The position numbers and the translations under genes were made by a program. A stretch of 64,000 bases of DNA, from the sequence record MT833283.1; one strand, written 5' to 3'. Source of the stretch: Escherichia coli phage vB_EcoS_Ace. Below the pieces are notes generated by a model. That model worked only from the letters and a program-made list of their open reading frames with translations, was not told where the DNA came from and searched no databases. Positions within the stretch are counted from its first letter, which is position 1; each line of letters opens with the position of its first letter. Positions 3,330 to 30,438 of this stretch are shown piece by piece.

Positions 3330-3668
3330 TTAAGCAACTACATTTTTCAGAAATTTGATGCCTTTCTTACACTTCTTATACCACCACGTCTTAGAGTTTT
3401 GTCGATTATGAACGCTTGAGATCTTCGCCTCATTAAAGTGCTTCAAAAGCATATAATCAGCCCCTAATTGCTCAAGTGGAATGTGATCTCCACTAGAATC
3501 ATAAACATAAGGCCGTTGATTAGCTCTGTAGTGATATACCTTATTAATCCGGCGTTTAAGCAAAGGACTAGTACAGTATATAAAGAAGTTTTTAGGATGC
3601 ATCAGCATCTCCTTCAAAATTGGTGCACCCCGTTGGTAACGATCCAACCTCTCAAGCTCTTCAGGCAA
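3330..3668 (-). CDS. hypothetical protein
   Basis: 112 aa ORF on the coding strand of this block. Confidence 0.5.
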   Translation of the reverse strand: MPEELERLDRYQRGAPILKEMLMHPKNFFIYCTSPLLKRRINKVYHYRANQRPYVYDSSGDHIPLEQLGADYMLLKHFNEAKISSVHNRQNSKTWWYKKCKKGIKFLKNVVA

Positions 3669-3701
3669 GCGCTAATCCATCTCAGCTAAAGGTGCAAATA
3701 T

Positions 3702-3777
3702 TGGCAAACCTACTAGGACTCGAACCTAGACCGTACGGTTTTGGAGACCGACATGCTGTCCAGTAACACTCTAGGAA
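3702..3777 (-). tRNA. tRNA-like, low confidence (anticodon read as CCA, Trp); acceptor pairing poor
   Basis: Good T-arm CTAGG-TTCGAGT-CCTAG and CCA encoded (plus 3702-3704), anticodon arm CGGT-CTCCAAA-ACCG; the 5' acceptor strand has two mismatches in my fold. Confidence 0.45.
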
Positions 3778-3786
3778 TGCAGAAAT

Positions 3787-4397: not shown

Positions 4398-4485
4398 TGG
4401 TGGGCGTTAATGGAGTCGAACCACTCGAGTCGCAATGACCAGGGATTTACAATCCCCTCCGCTACCACTTACGGAATAAACGCCC
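4398..4485 (-). tRNA. tRNA-Tyr (GTA), type II with long variable arm
   Basis: Acceptor GGGCGTT/AACGCCC, D-arm TCCG/CGGA, anticodon stem GGGGA/TCCCT with loop TTGTAAA, about 15-nt variable arm, T-arm AGTGG-TTCGACT-CCATT, CCA encoded; 88 nt. Confidence 0.75.
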
Positions 4486-9781: not shown

Positions 9782-9856
9782 TGGCCGAGGTGACAGGATT
9801 TGAACCTGCATAAAGGAATTTAGAAGACTCCTGCCTATCCCTTAGACTACACCCCG
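9782..9856 (-). tRNA. tRNA-Arg (TCT)
   Basis: Acceptor CGGGGTG/CACCTCG, anticodon stem GGAGT/ATTCC with loop CTTCTAA, T-arm GCAGG-TTCAAAT-CCTGT, CCA encoded. Confidence 0.75.
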
Positions 9857-9864
9857 AAAGTTAA

Positions 9865-10374
9865 TCATTTAATGACTTTATTCAATTTAGTTTGACTTTC
9901 AACAGCTTCTTTAGCAGATTTCTCAGCATTTTTAGCTGCACGTTGTGCTTTAGAGTCAATCAATAGCTTGTCATACTTGATATTAACGAACTCTTTAATA
10001 TCGTGGTAGAAACGTTGATGTGCCATGTATTCTTGTGCATCTGCGTCATAACAGCGCATATAGAAGTAATCACTAGGCTCTCCGCGAAGTGTACTCTCTA
10101 GAATCTGCGGGCGATAACGACGTAATGTATCTTTCGCCATTTTTACTTCATCAGTTTCTTCACCAAGCTGAACTAGGTGATAAAGACGAGTATTGTCGAT
10201 GTAATCCAAAGCTACGCTAAAGTATTCACCTTCTCGAAGATTATATCCTGTAATCTCACTCATTTTCTCGCGAGCTTGATCAAGTGTCAATCGTTCAGAG
10301 AAATGTGCTATATGCAGAATACGAGGGCAACACATTTCTTGAAGATCAAAGATACAAGTTGTTCCTAGATTCAT
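9865..10374 (-). CDS. hypothetical protein
   Basis: 169 aa ORF; RBS AAGGA upstream; lies at the 3' end of the ORF-free transcribed block. Confidence 0.55.
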   Translation of the reverse strand: MNLGTTCIFDLQEMCCPRILHIAHFSERLTLDQAREKMSEITGYNLREGEYFSVALDYIDNTRLYHLVQLGEETDEVKMAKDTLRRYRPQILESTLRGEPSDYFYMRCYDADAQEYMAHQRFYHDIKEFVNIKYDKLLIDSKAQRAAKNAEKSAKEAVESQTKLNKVIK

Positions 10375-11247
10375 ATTGATTCCTTTTGTTAGGTATTTTT
10401 AAGAACTCTCGAAAAAGCTCTTAAAGATACCCGGCGGTAGGTAGGGTCAGCCCCCTCAGATTAAGCTCTGCAGCCCTTCCGTCAGACAATATCCTCCAGT
10501 TTAAGTCAGGGTGACTTTGTGGTTATGTTCTCCGTATGTGAAGAACTCGGTTAGGCTTAGGTCATGACTCCCAGCCTACTGCTGCCACTCAACAGGAATT
10601 ATCGCGAATTACCTGTACTATTGGGCACCATTAGTGACATCTCTCATGCCAGCATTTCCCACTCTCATATTCACGCGGTCTGGTAGAATCACACCTCCGA
10701 TTTTCGATGCGAAGCTGGATGCCTAGTCTCTATGTTAAACGGGGCACACACTAGGCAGTGATCCCGAGTTCCGAGTTTGGTTGAGGCCGTCAGGTTTCCT
10801 CGTGGTTTAGCTGTTTCGATTCTAACCTAATACTGATCAGGCGGCGTACCTCCTGAACCGTCATAGTATGTACTCCAGCAGCGAATGCTTATCCGGTATA
10901 AGCCCGAGTTATCCGATTCTTTCCGACCGCAGGATTCGAACCTGCATCTTCCACCAGTTACGGTTTAATATTACCGTTTATACTAGGACGGCAGTGTTAT
11001 CACATAAGTCAGTTCGACACCCCACTAACATAAACTAGAGAAGAGTTTACGAGATTTCGGGACAGCTCCCGTGTTTTCCGCAGATTTTCAGTTCCCTATC
11101 AATAGCAATAAGCGTTAGCTCGTAGCCTCTCTCAGAGTACTTACTAGTCTCCAACTCACCGACTCTATTCAGTGGAATAGCTATCCTAGTAGGAATCACT
11201 AAACTCACTCAGCGTAATCGGCTCGCTGTTCTCTACTTTATGAATTT
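10375..11247 (-). ncRNA. candidate long structured non-coding RNA or very long leader (ORF-free, GC-elevated, promoter-driven)
   Basis: About 870 nt with no ORF of 60 aa or more in the track; visibly more GC-rich than flanking DNA; strong T5-type promoter at 11248-11276 reads into it; contains canonical T-arm GCAGG-TTCGAAT-CCTGC (plus 10928-10944) without a foldable tRNA body. Confidence 0.4.
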
Positions 11248-11276
11248 ATTATACAGAATTTTGAAGCGTTTAGCAA
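11248..11276 (-). promoter_or_regulatory. sigma70-type T5 early promoter (-35 TTGCTA, 17 nt, -10 TATAAT) firing into the ORF-free block
   Basis: rc of 11248-11276 gives TTGCTA-N17-TATAAT, then TAAATTCATAAAGTAGAGAACAG resembling the conserved leader but without an ATG. Confidence 0.65.
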
Positions 11277-11284
11277 ACCAATTT

Positions 11285-13267: not shown

Positions 13268-13711
13268 AGGAGCCTCGTCTCATCAATTTAAAAATATATT
13301 ATACAGATAATTAAACTGTTTTGCAAATACATTTTTAGATTGAGAGAACTAGTAAACCGATAAACAGCCTAGAGGCGCCACAGGCCATATCTTATGAGCC
13401 ATGTACCTTTGATCTAGGGTTTGAATCATCAACGAATACTTTGCATCTTTTAGCTTTAGAAGGTTAGAAGTTTGAGTGCTTTTAACTTTTCAGCTTTCAT
13501 ACTTGAGCGTTGATCTTTGAAGTTGTGTTGGTACTACCAACGACCTTTTGTTTTTACGTGTCAGATTAAATGTCTGATGTAATAAACATAATCTCCAATA
13601 GATTATACTTTATAGTATGGTCAGCGGTCTTATTTAACCTCGTATTTCAACCGCTGCTGCGAGGTAAGATGCTTGGGCTTTCGTCTACCGATTTACTAGT
13701 CTTTTAAATTA

Positions 13712-16435: not shown

Positions 16436-16518
16436 TATTTGTTTTCCTTTTTGTTGATCAATTTATGAGATATATTATACGAAATTTTGAAGCGTTTAGC
16501 AAATGAATTTTTTAAAAA

Positions 16519-24746: not shown

Positions 24747-25031
24747 TCCTATAGTGTACTTCGCTAACAGAGGATCAACAAAAAGATCTTGTTTATCAAC
24801 TTACAAATATATTATACCAATATATACGGGAGAAAGCAACTACAATTTTAAATAAGCCTATGATATTGCATTTAAATAAAAAATTTGCTTGCTTTTATTG
24901 GGAAATGTATGGTACTAGATAATCATTTTATATCGCGTACACGGGTGCGTGATTATACTATTTTTAGTAGAGGTTGGCAAATAAAATTTTTTGACTCAGA
25001 TCAATTTACAGAATGTTATAGTAAAATATTG

Positions 25032-25060
25032 TTGACATCCGCCTTCGAATGAGTTATAAT
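25032..25060 (+). promoter_or_regulatory. consensus sigma70 promoter (TTGACA-17-TATAAT) upstream of nrdD
   Basis: ttgaca 25032-25037, tataat 25055-25060, then RBS GAGAAGGAGAG before the ATG at 25090. Confidence 0.7.
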
Positions 25061-25089
25061 AGTAGTCTTAGTTAGAGAAGGAGAGTATA

Positions 25090-29825: not shown

Positions 29826-30438
29826 TTTTCATTAGTCCAATCCTGATTACCGAGTCATTTTGGCTCGGTTTTCTCTGTGCTCAAAGACACTGATAGCACC
29901 TTCGGAAAAATTTTACTTGCAGGATGCTCAAAATCTTGATATAATATTTATATTGAATTGAGAGACATTAGTAAAAATTGATTTTGCTAATTTTTCTTGT
30001 TTACAATCCGCAATACGGAACAGTTAGGCTGCCCCATTAAGGGTTGTTTTAACTATTACTAGTGTTTATACTGCATTAGTTAATTATCAATTAAGTGATC
30101 TGCGTACCCTGAATTCGGAAAGGTAAATCCAAACCGTGCATATTTAGCTCGTTATATAGGCAGAGCTTTATATGGGGGTGCGAACGAAAAGAGCAGCGAA
30201 TGGTGACACGTCCAGTAGCCACCTACCAATAGGATAGTGAGGGCAATCAGAATAGGCTTAGCGGCCAATGACCTAGGTTCTGATCTGGATAAGAGTTAAG
30301 AGAGCGCAGCACTGAGGTATGATAACTTATTCATACTGCTTGATGATTAATGTTTGTGTAAATGGTAGTAATAGTTGTTCTATTCTTTTGAATAGTCCTA
30401 AAGAAAGATATCCGAATAACCAACATAGGAGTATTGTT

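What the first reader, a model, noticed from the sequence alone, without database searches (positions are those of the whole stretch)
10375..11284. Promoter-driven ~0.9 kb ORF-free, GC-elevated block with an embedded tRNA-like T-arm
In a tightly packed, AT-rich phage genome this is the largest stretch with no ORF of 60 aa or more. It is visibly more GC-rich than its flanks, as the tRNA genes are, and a strong T5-type promoter (11248-11276, minus) transcribes straight into it with a leader resembling the conserved one but lacking an ATG. Inside is a canonical T-arm (GCAGG-TTCGAAT-CCTGC, 10928-10944) next to a perfect hairpin ACGGT/ACCGT with an 8-nt loop, yet I cannot fold a standard cloverleaf around it. 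Candidates: a large structured ncRNA (ribozyme or intron-like element, tmRNA-like or other tRNA-derived RNA), a cluster of highly divergent tRNA-like genes, or an unusually long structured 5' leader for the 9865-10374 gene.
Basis: seen in the sequence. Interest (0 to 1): 0.8.

Follow-up and report, generated by a model that had tools for sequence, protein, structure and literature searches.

The report
RNAX: large structured RNA of T5-like phages
The 0.9-kb gene-free stretch is a real, promoter-driven gene for a large, intricately folded non-coding RNA (named "RNAX" in two GenBank records, function unknown) that carries a tRNA look-alike on a long stem, is conserved in hundreds of T5-like phages, and resembles in layout, but not in sequence, the giant GOLLD/ROOL RNAs of other phages.

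Summary
Window 10375-11284 is the largest stretch without an ORF of 60 aa or more (910 nt). It is GC-elevated and lies behind a strong T5-type promoter on the minus strand.

It is the window's copy of RNAX, annotated as "stable RNA with unknown functions" in phage BF23 and DT571/2 records. Homologues occur in more than 500 T5-like phage genomes. Rfam has no family for it.

Comparison of 41 distinct homologues shows a modular, covarying structure:
- a closing helix, P1;
- an optional 5' domain, which is absent in T5 and replaced by an HNH endonuclease gene in some phages;
- a 12-bp irregular stem, P2, that carries a tRNA-like module at its tip;
- a variable linker;
- a conserved multi-helix 3' domain;
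- an invariant terminal hairpin.

The tRNA-like part is not a working tRNA. It scores only marginally, has acceptor-stem mismatches and no CCA, shows inconsistent "anticodons", and is replaced by a plain hairpin in some phages.

One apical loop carries a different GC-rich palindrome in each lineage, and a second loop holds the invariant UCAUGA. This suggests self-association through kissing loops, as in GOLLD, ROOL and OLE.

Function remains unknown. RNAX is deleted in the viable T5 st0 mutant.

The parts
11248..11276 (-). Sigma-70 (T5 early-type) promoter: -35 TTGCTA at 11271-11276, 17-nt spacer, -10 TATAAT at 11248-11253.
   Evidence: Consensus scan gives 10 of 12 matches. The homologous stretch in BF23 is annotated 'promoter P16-17'. 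The same promoter and leader sequence recurs at other early promoters of these phages.
10392..11241 (-). Predicted RNAX transcript body, about 850 nt. The start is inferred at A11241, seven bases after the -10 hexamer. The end is taken at the base of the terminal hairpin. Transferring the BF23 annotation gives 11234-10389.
   Evidence: Homology to the annotated RNAX genes. No ORF is conserved across homologues. Covariation supports RNA structure. The transcription start is inferred by analogy with T5 promoter PN25 (own knowledge); no transcript ends were measured.
11229..11241 (-). P1 helix, 5' strand: AUAAAGUAGAGAA, the first bases of the transcript.
   Evidence: Pairs with 11030-11042 (13 positions, one G-G mismatch). 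That mismatch is a U-A pair in BF23. L024 and L025 have compensatory AGAUG/CAUCU. In T5 and DT571/2 the two strands form a simple hairpin with the 5' domain missing.
11043..11228 (-). Variable, optional 5' domain enclosed by P1. It includes the hairpin CAGCG-AGCCGAUUA-CGCUG (11210-11228), AGUCGG (11159-11164), which can pair with the loop segment CCGAUU, and the hairpin CGGGA-GCUG-UCCCG (11058-11071).
   Evidence: Present in the window, BF23, phiR2-01 and the Klebsiella phages. Absent in T5 and DT571/2. Replaced by a 159-160-aa HNH endonuclease gene in fuchur (L032) and L006. The internal pairings were read from the sequence and were not tested statistically.
11030..11042 (-). P1 helix, 3' strand: UUCUCUAGUUUAU.
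11013..11027 (-). Conserved single-stranded motif UAGUGGGGUGUCGAA at the start of the core.
   Evidence: Nearly invariant in all homologues, including Providencia phage PR1. Its pairing partner is unresolved.
10904..11012 (-). P2 with the element at its tip. The 12-bp irregular stem is 5' CUGA-C-UUAU-G-UGAU (10999-11012) paired with AUCG-G-AUAA-C-UCGG (10904-10917), with conserved C-C and G-G mismatches. The conserved internal loop is AACACU (10993-10998) opposite AAAGA (10918-10922).
   Evidence: 99.4% of cells are paired, and 7 of 12 pairs show changes on both sides in 14 sequences. RNAalifold finds all 12 pairs unaided. Model R2 scores 175 bits here and 65 bits (E 1e-13) in phage PR1.
10921..10992 (-). 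tRNA-like module at the tip of P2. It has an acceptor-like stem, a D-arm with GG, and a T-arm GCAGG-UUCGAAU-CCUGC (10929-10945). The 'anticodon' arm is degenerate and there is no CCA.
   Evidence: Rfam tRNA model 29.7 bits against gathering 29. ARAGORN makes no call. Acceptor pairs 1-72 and 5-68 are mismatched in most homologues. 'Anticodons' differ between lineages (ACU, CGA, UAG, UCA). The arm is expanded in a second Klebsiella group. The whole module is replaced by a plain hairpin in L003, L005 and PR1.
10887..10903 (-). P3 hairpin: GCUUAU-ACCGG-AUAAGC.
   Evidence: Covaries between lineages: GCUUUU/AAAAGC, GGUUC/GAACC, GCUUC/GAAGC, GCGUA/UACGC.
10666..10886 (-). Variable linker between the P2/P3 module and the 3' domain. 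It contains the AAACCAC motif (10798-10808) and the helix UCGCA...UGUGA (10689-10712).
   Evidence: Not alignable between window-type and T5-type phages, and length varies. UCGCA/UGCGA versus UCACA/UGUGA in Klebsiella phages was read from the alignment and not tested formally.
10504..10665 (-). Conserved 3' domain: a multi-way junction closed by Pa (GUGG/CCAC). Its helices are Pb (10635-10651), the Pc/Pd region (10592-10628), Pe (10552-10578), Pf (10527-10546) and Pg (AGUCA-CCC-UGACU, 10504-10516).
   Evidence: 97.5% of cells paired. Seven pairs change on both sides, a value no shuffle in 500 reached. Slid controls give 34-47% paired. RNAalifold recovers Pa, Pb, Pe, Pf and Pg. Model R1 finds exactly one copy per T5-like genome, scoring 197.9 bits here. 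In Klebsiella phages the outer part of Pe is fully compensated: GUGAC/GUCAC versus UAGGC/GCCUA. The Pc/Pd pairing is ambiguous.
10602..10607 (-). Palindrome UCGCGA in the apical loop of hairpin Pd. This is a candidate symmetric kissing-loop site.
   Evidence: The homologous loop holds a different palindrome in each lineage: UCGCGA, CGCGCG (T5), CUCGAG (L005), UCCGCGGA (Klebsiella), GUGCGCAC (phiR2-01) and GUGCAC (My1, DU_PP_V). Only L028 is reduced to CGCG. Chance per shuffled loop is 0.07-0.29, with a product of 1.1e-5. UCGCGA occurs only once in RNAX.
10562..10569 (-). Invariant 8-nt loop AGUCAUGA of hairpin Pe. It contains the palindrome UCAUGA.
   Evidence: Invariant in all Markadamsvirinae homologues. 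My1 has AGUCAUGC. A loop AAGUCAUGACA also occurs in the distant relative L081.
10433..10503 (-). 3' tail: the UAAACUGGA motif, then a closing helix (GACGG.../...CCGCC) around two small hairpins.
   Evidence: T5-type phages have the same topology with different sequence (AGACG/CGUCU). Klebsiella phages and L067 show CAG/CUG where the window has CGG/CCG, around a conserved A-A mismatch. This was read from the alignments and not tested formally.
10392..10432 (-). Terminal long AU-rich hairpin: GGGUAUCUUUAAGAGCUUUUUCGAGAGUUCUUAAAAAUACC. A likely processing or 3'-protection element, not a terminator.
   Evidence: Sequence-invariant in all Markadamsvirinae and Pectobacterium homologues. It occurs once in the window, with none expected by chance, and once per genome. 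No U-tract follows and it is not called as a terminator. In BF23 and T5 it directly precedes tRNA-Arg.
9865..10374 (-). Context: a 169-aa ORF of unknown function with its own Shine-Dalgarno sequence (AAGGA). It is inserted between RNAX and tRNA-Arg in this lineage and is not part of RNAX.
   Evidence: No Pfam or PHROG match. Absent in BF23, T5 and DT571/2, where RNAX abuts tRNA-Arg. Present in fuchur.
9782..9856 (-). Context: tRNA-Arg(UCU), the conserved downstream neighbour of RNAX.
   Evidence: It also follows the RNAX-like RNA of the distant phage L081.

Best explanation
Window 10392-11241 (minus strand) is the gene for RNAX, an RNA of about 850 nt that is not translated and works as a folded RNA.

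Shown:
- A strong early sigma-70 promoter points into the region.
- No ORF is conserved in it.
- Homologues sit at the same place in more than 500 T5-like phage genomes: after the YqeY-like gene and before tRNA-Arg(UCU).
- The sequence evolves as base-paired RNA on this strand.

Architecture:
- P1 pairs the very 5' end of the transcript with the segment just before the core, and so encloses an optional 5' domain.
- A 12-bp irregular stem, P2, presents a tRNA-like module (acceptor stem, T-arm and D-arm elbow, but no usable anticodon arm and no CCA) across a conserved internal loop, AACACU/AAAGA.
- After a variable linker comes a conserved multi-helix 3' domain.
- An invariant long hairpin ends the RNA.

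Inferred:
- The RNA is made early in infection as part of a transcript that reads through into the downstream ORF and tRNA-Arg.
- It is released by processing at the terminal hairpin. In T5 and BF23, RNase P cleavage at tRNA-Arg would do this.
- It acts in trans as a structural RNA.

Most likely mode of action (about 0.35 on its own): homo-oligomerisation through self-complementary apical loops. These are the lineage-specific palindrome in Pd and the invariant UCAUGA in Pe. The assembly would display the tRNA-like elbow, in the manner of the phage RNAs GOLLD and ROOL, which also sit in tRNA islands. Its role would be accessory, related to tRNA, translation or host defence, and is not needed in laboratory hosts.
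For: Identity and conservation:
- The BF23 and DT571/2 records annotate the homologous stretch as misc_RNA RNAX, with a promoter.
- 531 phage records match.
- Models R1 and R2 each find one copy per genome.

Non-coding:
- This is the largest ORF-free gap in the window.
- Short ORFs differ in place and frame between homologues.

Structure:
- 3' domain: 97.5% paired, 7 compensatory pairs, a value no shuffle in 500 reached, slid controls 34-47% paired.
- P2, tRNA-like module and P3: 15 pairs with changes on both sides; P2 is 99.4% paired.
- RNAalifold finds the same helices unaided.
- Klebsiella phages fully compensate the outer part of Pe.
- P1 has compensatory variants.

Strand:
- 20 and 26 G-U cells in the two alignments.
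- Pairing drops from 97.5% to 91.4% and from 91.3% to 85.8% on the opposite strand.
- The promoter and the tRNA genes are on the same strand.

Self-association:
- A different palindrome sits in the homologous loop in six lineages; chance product 1.1e-5.
- The same reasoning was used for OLE and GOLLD (PMC12286853).

Analogy of layout with GOLLD: phage tRNA island, conserved 3' half, variable 5' half, tRNA in the linker.
Against: - No transcript data were available here. 'Stable RNA' is only a GenBank note.
- Folding energy is only modestly better than shuffles, z = -1.84.
- RNAX is inside the deletion of the viable T5 st0 mutant, so it is dispensable in the laboratory.
- The 5' domain and the tRNA-like module are each lost or replaced in some phages.
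- Palindromes are not enriched overall in RNAX: 9 seen against 13 expected. The kissing-loop idea rests on one loop position. The palindrome register shifts between lineages rather than covarying pair by pair, and L028 keeps only CGCG.
- No similarity to the GOLLD or ROOL models was found.
- The Pc/Pd pairing is ambiguous.
- Model R1 does not detect the My1 or PR1 versions.
Confidence: 0.6

Rival explanations
1. tRNA-mimic decoy or sponge. RNAX acts as a monomeric RNA or RNP. The tRNA-like elbow held on P2, together with the conserved internal loop, binds and titrates a host protein that recognises tRNAs. Candidates are an anticodon nuclease or another tRNA-directed defence, a tRNA-modifying or repair factor, or Ro/Rsr as for YrlA. 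The rest of the RNA serves as scaffold.
For: - The acceptor stem, T-arm and D-loop GG are the conserved parts of the module, while the anticodon arm drifts freely.
- The topology, a tRNA-like domain at the tip of a stem made by its flanking strands, is that of bacterial Y RNAs (own knowledge).
- The RNA lies in the phage tRNA island. Phage tRNAs are known to counter tRNA-targeting defences, as cited in PMC10644984.
- It is accessory in laboratory hosts.
Against: - The module is replaced by a plain hairpin in L003, L005 and PR1 while the rest is kept. The tRNA mimic therefore cannot be the sole active part.
- No Y-RNA or YrlA model matches.
- This reading does not explain the lineage-specific palindromic loop.
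Confidence: 0.15
2. Processing precursor. RNAX is not one functional RNA. It is a polycistronic precursor cut by RNase P and RNase Z/E at the tRNA-like module, and by RNase III at the terminal hairpin, into several small stable RNAs. T5 is annotated with other such RNAs (RNAI, RNAIII, RNA1 and others).
For: - The T5 st0 record annotates six small stable RNAs in the tRNA region.
- A tRNA-like module is a natural RNase P and RNase Z signal, as for mascRNA in MALAT1 (own knowledge).
- The modules are separable in evolution and appear in a different order in PR1-like phages and L081.
Against: - P1 and P2 pair segments that lie on either side of the putative cleavage sites. The pieces would stay together, or the structure is built as a whole.
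- The acceptor stem is extended by a paired leader and trailer and lacks CCA.
- The depositors annotated one 636-784-nt RNA.
Confidence: 0.12
3. Cis-acting leader. The structured region regulates translation or stability of what lies downstream: the 169-aa ORF at 9865-10374 and tRNA-Arg.
For: There is no terminator between RNAX and the ORF. The ORF's Shine-Dalgarno sequence follows the terminal hairpin closely.
Against: - The ORF is absent in T5, BF23 and DT571/2, where RNAX is equally conserved.
- 850 nt with many covarying helices is far beyond any known leader.
- No riboswitch or T-box model matches.
Confidence: 0.04
4. Decaying remnant. The block is debris of old tRNA genes and homing-endonuclease traffic, kept only by linkage, or it is a DNA-level element such as a protein-binding palindrome or an origin.
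For: - There is a marginal tRNA pseudogene-like hit.
- HNH genes insert here.
- The region is dispensable in T5 st0.
- The palindromes are also restriction-site-like DNA motifs.
Against: - Compensatory substitutions keep 12-bp and multi-helix structures across genera, including G-U pairs that are specific to this strand.
- The single-stranded motifs are invariant.
- Only one tRNA-like unit is detectable.
- A strong promoter is conserved.
Confidence: 0.04

Closest known systems
RNAX of phages BF23 (NC_042564.1) and DT571/2 (NC_047749.1), GenBank misc_RNA 'stable RNA with unknown functions'
   Same: Homologous sequence: about 75% identity over 74% of the region, with model scores of about 198 bits in both. 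Same promoter, same upstream YqeY-like gene and same downstream tRNA-Arg(UCU).
   Different: The window's copy has a different linker and 3' tail. A 169-aa ORF is inserted before tRNA-Arg. The tRNA-like module is more degenerate: ARAGORN calls it in BF23 and T5 but not here. I found no published structure or function for RNAX.
GOLLD RNA (giant ornate phage/prophage RNA; forms a 14-mer cage)
   Same: Phage-encoded and about 800 nt or longer. It lies in or next to a tRNA island. [quoted passage not shown] Symmetric kissing loops made of palindromes change between lineages (PMC12286853).
   Different: No detectable similarity to the Rfam model. The hosts are enterobacteria and the phages are strictly lytic siphoviruses. 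Oligomerisation of RNAX is untested.
ROOL RNA (rumen-originating ornate large RNA; forms an octameric cage)
   Same: A large, ornate phage RNA near tRNA genes with unknown function. It has a variable internal linker and conserved kissing loops.
   Different: No model match. The helices and motifs differ.
Bacterial Y RNAs (YrlA) and tmRNA: RNAs with a built-in tRNA-like domain
   Same: A tRNA-like acceptor, T-arm and D-arm elbow without a decoding anticodon arm, joined to a long helix. In YrlA, as here, the helix is made by the strands that flank the tRNA-like domain (own knowledge).
   Different: There is no Rfam or ARAGORN match. RNAX is 5-8 times larger than YrlA. Unlike tmRNA, it has no CCA end and no tag reading frame, and its tRNA-like domain is internal.
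mascRNA/MALAT1-type embedded tRNA-like processing signals
   Same: A tRNA-like fold embedded in a long non-coding transcript that RNase P or RNase Z could recognise (own knowledge).
   Different: Here the flanks of the module are base-paired (P2), and the module is dispensable in some lineages. Cleavage is untested.

Membership tests
RNAX (annotated stable RNA of BF23 / DT571/2) | Sequence and structure homology to the annotated RNAX genes | tested here: met
   blastn gives 74.8% identity over 74% of the region to BF23 RNAX. Model R1 scores 197.9 bits in the window and 198.7 bits in BF23. Model R2 scores 175 bits in the window.
RNAX (annotated stable RNA of BF23 / DT571/2) | Same genomic place: own early promoter after the YqeY-like gene, tRNA-Arg(UCU) downstream | tested here: met
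   In the window, one extra ORF lies between RNAX and tRNA-Arg.
RNAX (annotated stable RNA of BF23 / DT571/2) | Accumulates as a stable RNA in infected cells | not testable with these tools
   This rests only on the depositors' note. I found no paper with data.
tRNA (Rfam RF00005) | Covariance-model score at or above the gathering threshold | tested here: inconclusive
   29.7 bits against 29. This is the weakest of the window's 16 hits, and the anticodon arm is left unaligned. The Klebsiella homologue scores 26.6 bits, below threshold.
tRNA (Rfam RF00005) | Complete cloverleaf with a 5-bp anticodon stem and 7-nt loop, called by ARAGORN | tested here: not met
   Not called in the window. In homologues the calls give incompatible identities: Ser-ACU, Ser-CGA, Leu-UAG, SeC-UCA. 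In one group the arm is expanded by a 13-nt hairpin.
tRNA (Rfam RF00005) | Fully paired 7-bp acceptor stem followed by discriminator and CCA (encoded in this phage's real tRNAs) | tested here: not met
   Pair 1-72 is unpaired in 10 of 14 sequences and pair 5-68 in 9 of 14. The stem is followed by AAAGA and continues into helix P2. tRNA-Arg next door encodes GCCA.
GOLLD / ROOL | Match to the family covariance model | tested here: not met
   No hit at E up to 10 on the window's RNAX or on the 1.3-kb Klebsiella version.
GOLLD / ROOL | Large ornate covarying RNA encoded by phages next to tRNA genes | tested here: met
   The family description comes from PMC12286853.
GOLLD / ROOL | RNA-only homo-oligomer (cage) held by kissing loops | not testable with these tools
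   Only indirect support: lineage-specific palindromes in one apical loop and an invariant palindromic loop. There is no overall enrichment of palindromes.
tmRNA | tRNA-like domain formed by the 5' and 3' ends with CCA, plus a tag reading frame; detected by ARAGORN or Rfam | tested here: not met
   ARAGORN finds no tmRNA, standard or permuted. Rfam gives no hit. The tRNA-like module is internal and contiguous.
Y RNA / YrlA | Match to Rfam Y-RNA-type models; Ro/Rsr-binding stem | tested here: not met
   No Rfam hit. Only the topology is shared. Rsr binding is not testable here.
Self-splicing introns / small ribozymes | Match to group I, group II or ribozyme models; interrupts a host gene | tested here: not met
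   No Rfam hit. The flanks are a complete YqeY-like gene and a separate ORF or tRNA.
Cis-regulatory 5' leader | Always precedes the regulated coding gene | tested here: not met
   In BF23, DT571/2 and T5, RNAX is followed directly by tRNA-Arg, not by an ORF.

The most novel reading that the evidence does not exclude
RNAX is a third, evolutionarily independent class of self-assembling, RNA-only multimer made by phages, alongside GOLLD and ROOL. In this case it comes from the classical, genetically tractable T5 family. Two self-complementary apical loops would link the protomers into a dimer or a closed higher-order assembly. That assembly would display tRNA-like elbows and act on the host's tRNA, translation or defence machinery.
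Probability: 0.25. Interest if true: 0.9.

Novelty: new variant of a known kind. Interest (0 to 1): 0.7.

Why it matters
Giant ornate phage RNAs (GOLLD, ROOL) sit in tRNA islands and form striking RNA-only cages, but nobody knows what they do. Part of the reason is that their hosts and phages are hard to manipulate.

RNAX has the same layout: a large covarying RNA in a phage tRNA island, with a conserved 3' half, a variable 5' half, a tRNA-like element in between, and candidate palindromic kissing loops. It belongs to T5-like phages of E. coli and Salmonella. Deletion mutants, defence-system strain panels, in-vitro transcription and cryo-EM are all routine for these phages.

RNAX is conserved in more than 500 sequenced therapeutic and model phages. 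It is usually left unannotated or mis-annotated as small "hypothetical proteins", "tRNA-OTHER" or "tRNA-Sec". It is missing from Rfam.

A covariance model and structure for it would correct those annotations. They would also give the field a tractable system for asking why phages invest in large structured RNAs next to their tRNAs.

Tried and rejected
- Known RNA families. Rfam was run on the region, on RNAX alone, on the Klebsiella version and on the whole window. Only the marginal tRNA hit appeared. ARAGORN gave neither a tRNA nor a tmRNA.
- Folding energy as evidence. The z-score is only -1.84, so it was not relied upon.
- First hairpin pattern. It had one N too many and found only My1; this was corrected.
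- Metagenome scan. It gave 9 loci. Two of them (L069, L073) were chance matches inside a methyltransferase-like gene of an AT-rich organism and were discarded.
- Naive all-against-all search for covarying column stacks. It was too noisy on a sequence alignment. I switched to hand-defined helices tested with controls.
- Model R1. It is built from close relatives and does not detect the My1, DU_PP_V or PR1 versions. Model R2 does detect PR1 and DU_PP_V.
- General palindrome enrichment. Absent: 9 seen against 13.1 expected.
- Helix Pc as I drew it. It has no change on both sides, and RNAalifold prefers a longer Pd stem. This is left open.
- Pa (GUGG/CCAC). There are competing partners: an upstream CCRC, and a second AGUGGGG/AAACCAC pair. 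This is unresolved.
- Conserved small ORFs. None exists.
- Literature. Eight searches or readings found no paper describing RNAX, its expression or its function.
Full report
**1. The observation**

Window 10375-11284 holds no ORF of 60 aa or more in any frame. The longest are 56 aa (plus strand) and 53 aa (minus strand). It is the largest such gap in the 64-kb window, at 910 nt against 493 nt for the next one.

Its GC content is 0.455, against 0.399 for the window and 0.37-0.38 for the flanks. It ranks 27th of 1262 among 900-nt windows. The window's tRNA genes average 0.50.

A promoter with 10 of 12 consensus matches lies on the minus strand and points into the block: TTGCTA, 17 nt, TATAAT, at 11276-11248. 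The T-arm GCAGG-UUCGAAU-CCUGC is at 10929-10945, and the ACGGU/ACCGU hairpin is next to it.

ARAGORN finds 14 tRNAs in the window but none here. The Rfam tRNA model gives 29.7 bits at 10921-10992, against a gathering score of 29. The folding energy of the sense strand is only modestly better than shuffles (z = -1.84; antisense z = -0.38).

**2. What it is homologous to**

The window is a T5-like phage. The best DNA matches are Salmonella phages beppo, oselot and Stitch and related Epseptimavirus phages. A sensitive DNA search finds the region in 531 phage records.

Two records annotate the homologous stretch as a gene. The BF23 tRNA-region record has "misc_RNA rnaX, RNAX, stable RNA with unknown functions" (784 nt), preceded by "promoter P16-17" and followed directly by tRNA-Arg. 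DT571/2 has the same gene at 636 nt. Most other records leave the stretch blank, or fill it with small "hypothetical proteins", "tRNA-OTHER", "tRNA-Sec" or "tRNA-Ser".

The upstream gene is a YqeY-like protein. Downstream, the window has an extra 169-aa ORF with no family match, then tRNA-Arg(UCU).

I found no paper in the held library that describes RNAX.

**3. Modular anatomy**

I collected loci through the neighbouring protein, through GenBank hits and through motif scans of viral and metagenome collections. This gave 41 distinct homologues with pairwise identity of 52-97%. Alignment shows the following modules.

(a) The promoter and the first transcribed bases are conserved.

(b) Helix P1 pairs the transcript's 5' end (11229-11241) with 11030-11042. 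It shows compensatory variants. In T5 and DT571/2 it is a simple hairpin, because the 5' domain it encloses is missing.

(c) The 5' domain (11043-11228) is optional. In fuchur and L006 it is replaced by an HNH homing-endonuclease gene.

(d) A core begins with UAGUGGGGUGUCGAA. It is followed by the long stem P2, the tRNA-like module at the tip of P2, and hairpin P3.

(e) A linker follows that cannot be aligned between lineages.

(f) A conserved 162-nt 3' domain lies at 10504-10665.

(g) A 3' tail has conserved topology.

(h) A terminal AU-rich hairpin of about 40 nt (10392-10432) is sequence-invariant from Salmonella to Pectobacterium phages. It occurs once per genome.

No ORF is conserved in place or frame.

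**4. Evidence that it is a folded RNA**

For the 3' domain I drew seven helices by eye on nine diverse sequences. In the test, 97.5% of cells are paired and seven pairs change on both sides. No shuffle in 500 reached the observed values. With partners slid by 1-3 columns, pairing falls to 34-47% with 0-1 compensatory pairs. RNAalifold, without my input, returns Pa, Pb, Pe, Pf and Pg. It prefers a longer stem in the Pc/Pd region, so I leave that part open.

A covariance model of this domain (R1) finds exactly one copy per T5-like genome. It scores 55 bits in L005, 24.8 bits (E 5e-5) in phiR2-01 and about 15 bits in the Klebsiella phages. In the Klebsiella phages the outer part of Pe is fully compensated (GUGAC/GUCAC for UAGGC/GCCUA), and Pf shrinks to GC-GAAA-GC.

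For the P2, tRNA-like and P3 block in 14 sequences, 15 pairs change on both sides (no shuffle in 500 reached this). P2 itself is 99.4% paired, with 7 of its 12 pairs compensatory. It keeps two conserved mismatches (C-C and G-G) and a conserved internal loop, AACACU/AAAGA. RNAalifold finds all 12 P2 pairs unaided.

On the opposite strand the same pairs are less often standard: 91.4% against 97.5%, and 85.8% against 91.3%. This is because of 20 and 26 G-U cells. That agrees with the direction of the promoter and of the tRNA genes.

**5. The tRNA-like module is not a tRNA gene**

The module sits at the tip of P2, so its 5' and 3' flanks are base-paired. It has no CCA, whereas the neighbouring tRNA-Arg encodes one. 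Acceptor pairs 1-72 and 5-68 are mismatched in most homologues.

The "anticodon" arm is a 3-4-bp stem with a 6-nt loop. Where ARAGORN does call it, it reads ACU, CGA, UAG or UCA. In a second Klebsiella group and in L074 the arm carries an extra hairpin. In L003, L005 and the Providencia phage PR1 the whole module is replaced by a plain hairpin, while P2 and its internal loop are kept.

What is conserved is the acceptor stem, T-arm and D-loop GG, that is, the tRNA elbow.

**6. Breadth of the family**

Model R2 finds the P2/P3 module in PR1 at 65 bits, E 1e-13. A scan of IMG/VR with the module's motif adds a PR1-like phage and a 104-kb T5-like phage, L081.

In these phages the module lies at the 3' end of an RNA of about 0.75 kb, followed in L081 by tRNA-Arg(UCU). 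The upstream part contains hairpin loops GUCGCGAA and UGAUCA, the latter with covarying stems, and in L081 a loop AAGUCAUGACA. The family therefore spans several Demerecviridae genera, with its modules in a different order.

All true hits are complete T5-like phage genomes or metagenome contigs of that kind.

**7. Dispensability**

The T5 st0 record shows a deletion running from inside the YqeY-like gene (T5p079) to T5p066, next to tRNA-Asp. In wild-type T5, RNAX lies immediately downstream of that gene. Neither model finds RNAX in the st0 region.

RNAX is therefore not needed for growth on laboratory hosts. This fits an accessory, host-interaction role, as for the phage tRNAs.

**8. How it may work**

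Shown: a promoter, absence of coding potential, and purifying selection on a large base-paired architecture with invariant unpaired motifs.

Inferred: transcription starts near 11241. This is by analogy with T5 promoter PN25 (own knowledge) and is consistent with P1 starting at that base. The terminal hairpin has no U-tract and is not called as a terminator. In BF23 and T5 it is followed at once by tRNA-Arg, which has no promoter of its own. The RNA is therefore probably cut out of a longer transcript. RNase P at tRNA-Arg is one candidate enzyme, and RNase III at the long hairpin is another, though that is my guess.

The most suggestive functional clue is in the apical loop of hairpin Pd. Every lineage has a GC-rich palindrome there, but a different one: UCGCGA, CGCGCG, CUCGAG, UCCGCGGA, GUGCGCAC or GUGCAC. 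The stems below the loop also differ. Adjacent bases of a palindrome cannot pair within one chain, and no second copy exists in the RNA. The natural partner is therefore the same loop of another RNAX molecule. This is the argument used for OLE L9.3 and GOLLD L21a (PMC12286853).

The chance of a palindrome of 6 nt or more in each shuffled loop is 0.07-0.29, and the product over six lineages is 1.1e-5. The Pe loop AGUCAUGA (palindrome UCAUGA) is invariant.

Caveats:
- Palindromes are not enriched in RNAX overall.
- The palindrome register shifts between lineages rather than covarying pair by pair.
- One lineage keeps only CGCG.

I put the oligomer reading at about 0.35 on its own.

**9. Comparison with known systems**

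By membership, this is RNAX, a gene named in GenBank but uncharacterised.

By layout, the closest systems are GOLLD and ROOL. Both are phage-encoded RNAs in tRNA islands, very large and ornate. GOLLD has a conserved 3' region, a variable 5' region, and tRNAs sometimes in its linker. Its subunits are joined by palindromic kissing loops. However, RNAX does not match their covariance models, nor any of the other Rfam models. It is not a member of those families.

The tRNA-like domain on a stem recalls YrlA/Y RNAs and tmRNA. Neither model nor their defining features fit.

**10. Verdict**

The element is already named in two database records, so its existence is not new. As far as I could find, the following points are new:
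- the covariation-supported architecture;
- the finding that the tRNA-like part is a displayed module rather than a gene;
- the family's breadth and modular rearrangements;
- the candidate self-association loops.

Function remains unknown.

Noticed in passing
window 3624-3695 (minus strand): The Rfam tRNA model scores 33.4 bits here, but ARAGORN calls no tRNA. The site lies just downstream of tRNA-Trp (3702-3778) on the transcribed (minus) strand. It may be another degenerate or tRNA-like gene.
   Followed up: no
window 4398-4485 (minus strand): ARAGORN calls an 88-nt tRNA-Tyr(GTA), but it is missing from the Rfam list at gathering threshold.
   Followed up: no
window 29826-30318, 13268-13711, 24747-25089: These are the next-largest stretches without any ORF of 60 aa or more (493, 444 and 343 nt). 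They have no Rfam hit. They could hold further non-coding elements or regulatory regions.
   Followed up: no
window about 16489-16502 (minus strand): A second exact copy of the promoter string TTGCTAAACGCTTC occurs here, so another T5-type early promoter with the same -35 region lies in the window.
   Followed up: no
window 9865-10374 (minus strand): A 169-aa ORF with no Pfam or PHROG match is inserted between RNAX and tRNA-Arg in this lineage and in fuchur. It is absent in T5, BF23 and DT571/2.
   Followed up: partly
L032 1544-2023 (Salmonella phage fuchur) and L006: An HNH homing-endonuclease gene (PHROG 99, E 2e-50) occupies the place of the RNAX 5' domain and starts right at the RNAX promoter. 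The endonuclease mRNA would therefore run on into the RNAX core.
   Followed up: partly
L066 3745-4400 (Providencia phage PR1), L080, L081: Distant T5-like phages have an RNAX-like RNA with the modules in another order. The P2/P3 module is last. The palindromic-loop hairpins (UCGCGA, UGAUCA, and GUCAUGAC in L081) and a T-arm-like element come first. PR1's record annotates a minus-strand 'hypothetical protein' (PR1_88) across it.
   Followed up: partly
L039 219-364 (minus strand) and L049 1715-1867 (minus strand): Weak full-length matches to the P2/tRNA-like model R2 (31 and 24 bits) lie downstream of RNAX in DU_PP_V and in a Klebsiella phage. They may be a second P2-like module around a tRNA, or noise.
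   Followed up: no
L065 (T5 st0 record AY692264, 28000-36000): The depositors annotate six further small 'misc_RNA' genes in the T5 tRNA region: RNAI, RNAIII, RNA1, RNA2H, RNAIV and rna2. None of them is in Rfam. The window's tRNA region may hold homologues.
   Followed up: no
L029 and relatives (Klebsiella phages), about 1.3-kb RNAX: The Klebsiella versions are about 450 nt longer and contain the AAGUGGGA junction motif more than once. GenBank fills them with four to six small 'hypothetical protein' CDSs that are probably spurious.
   Followed up: partly
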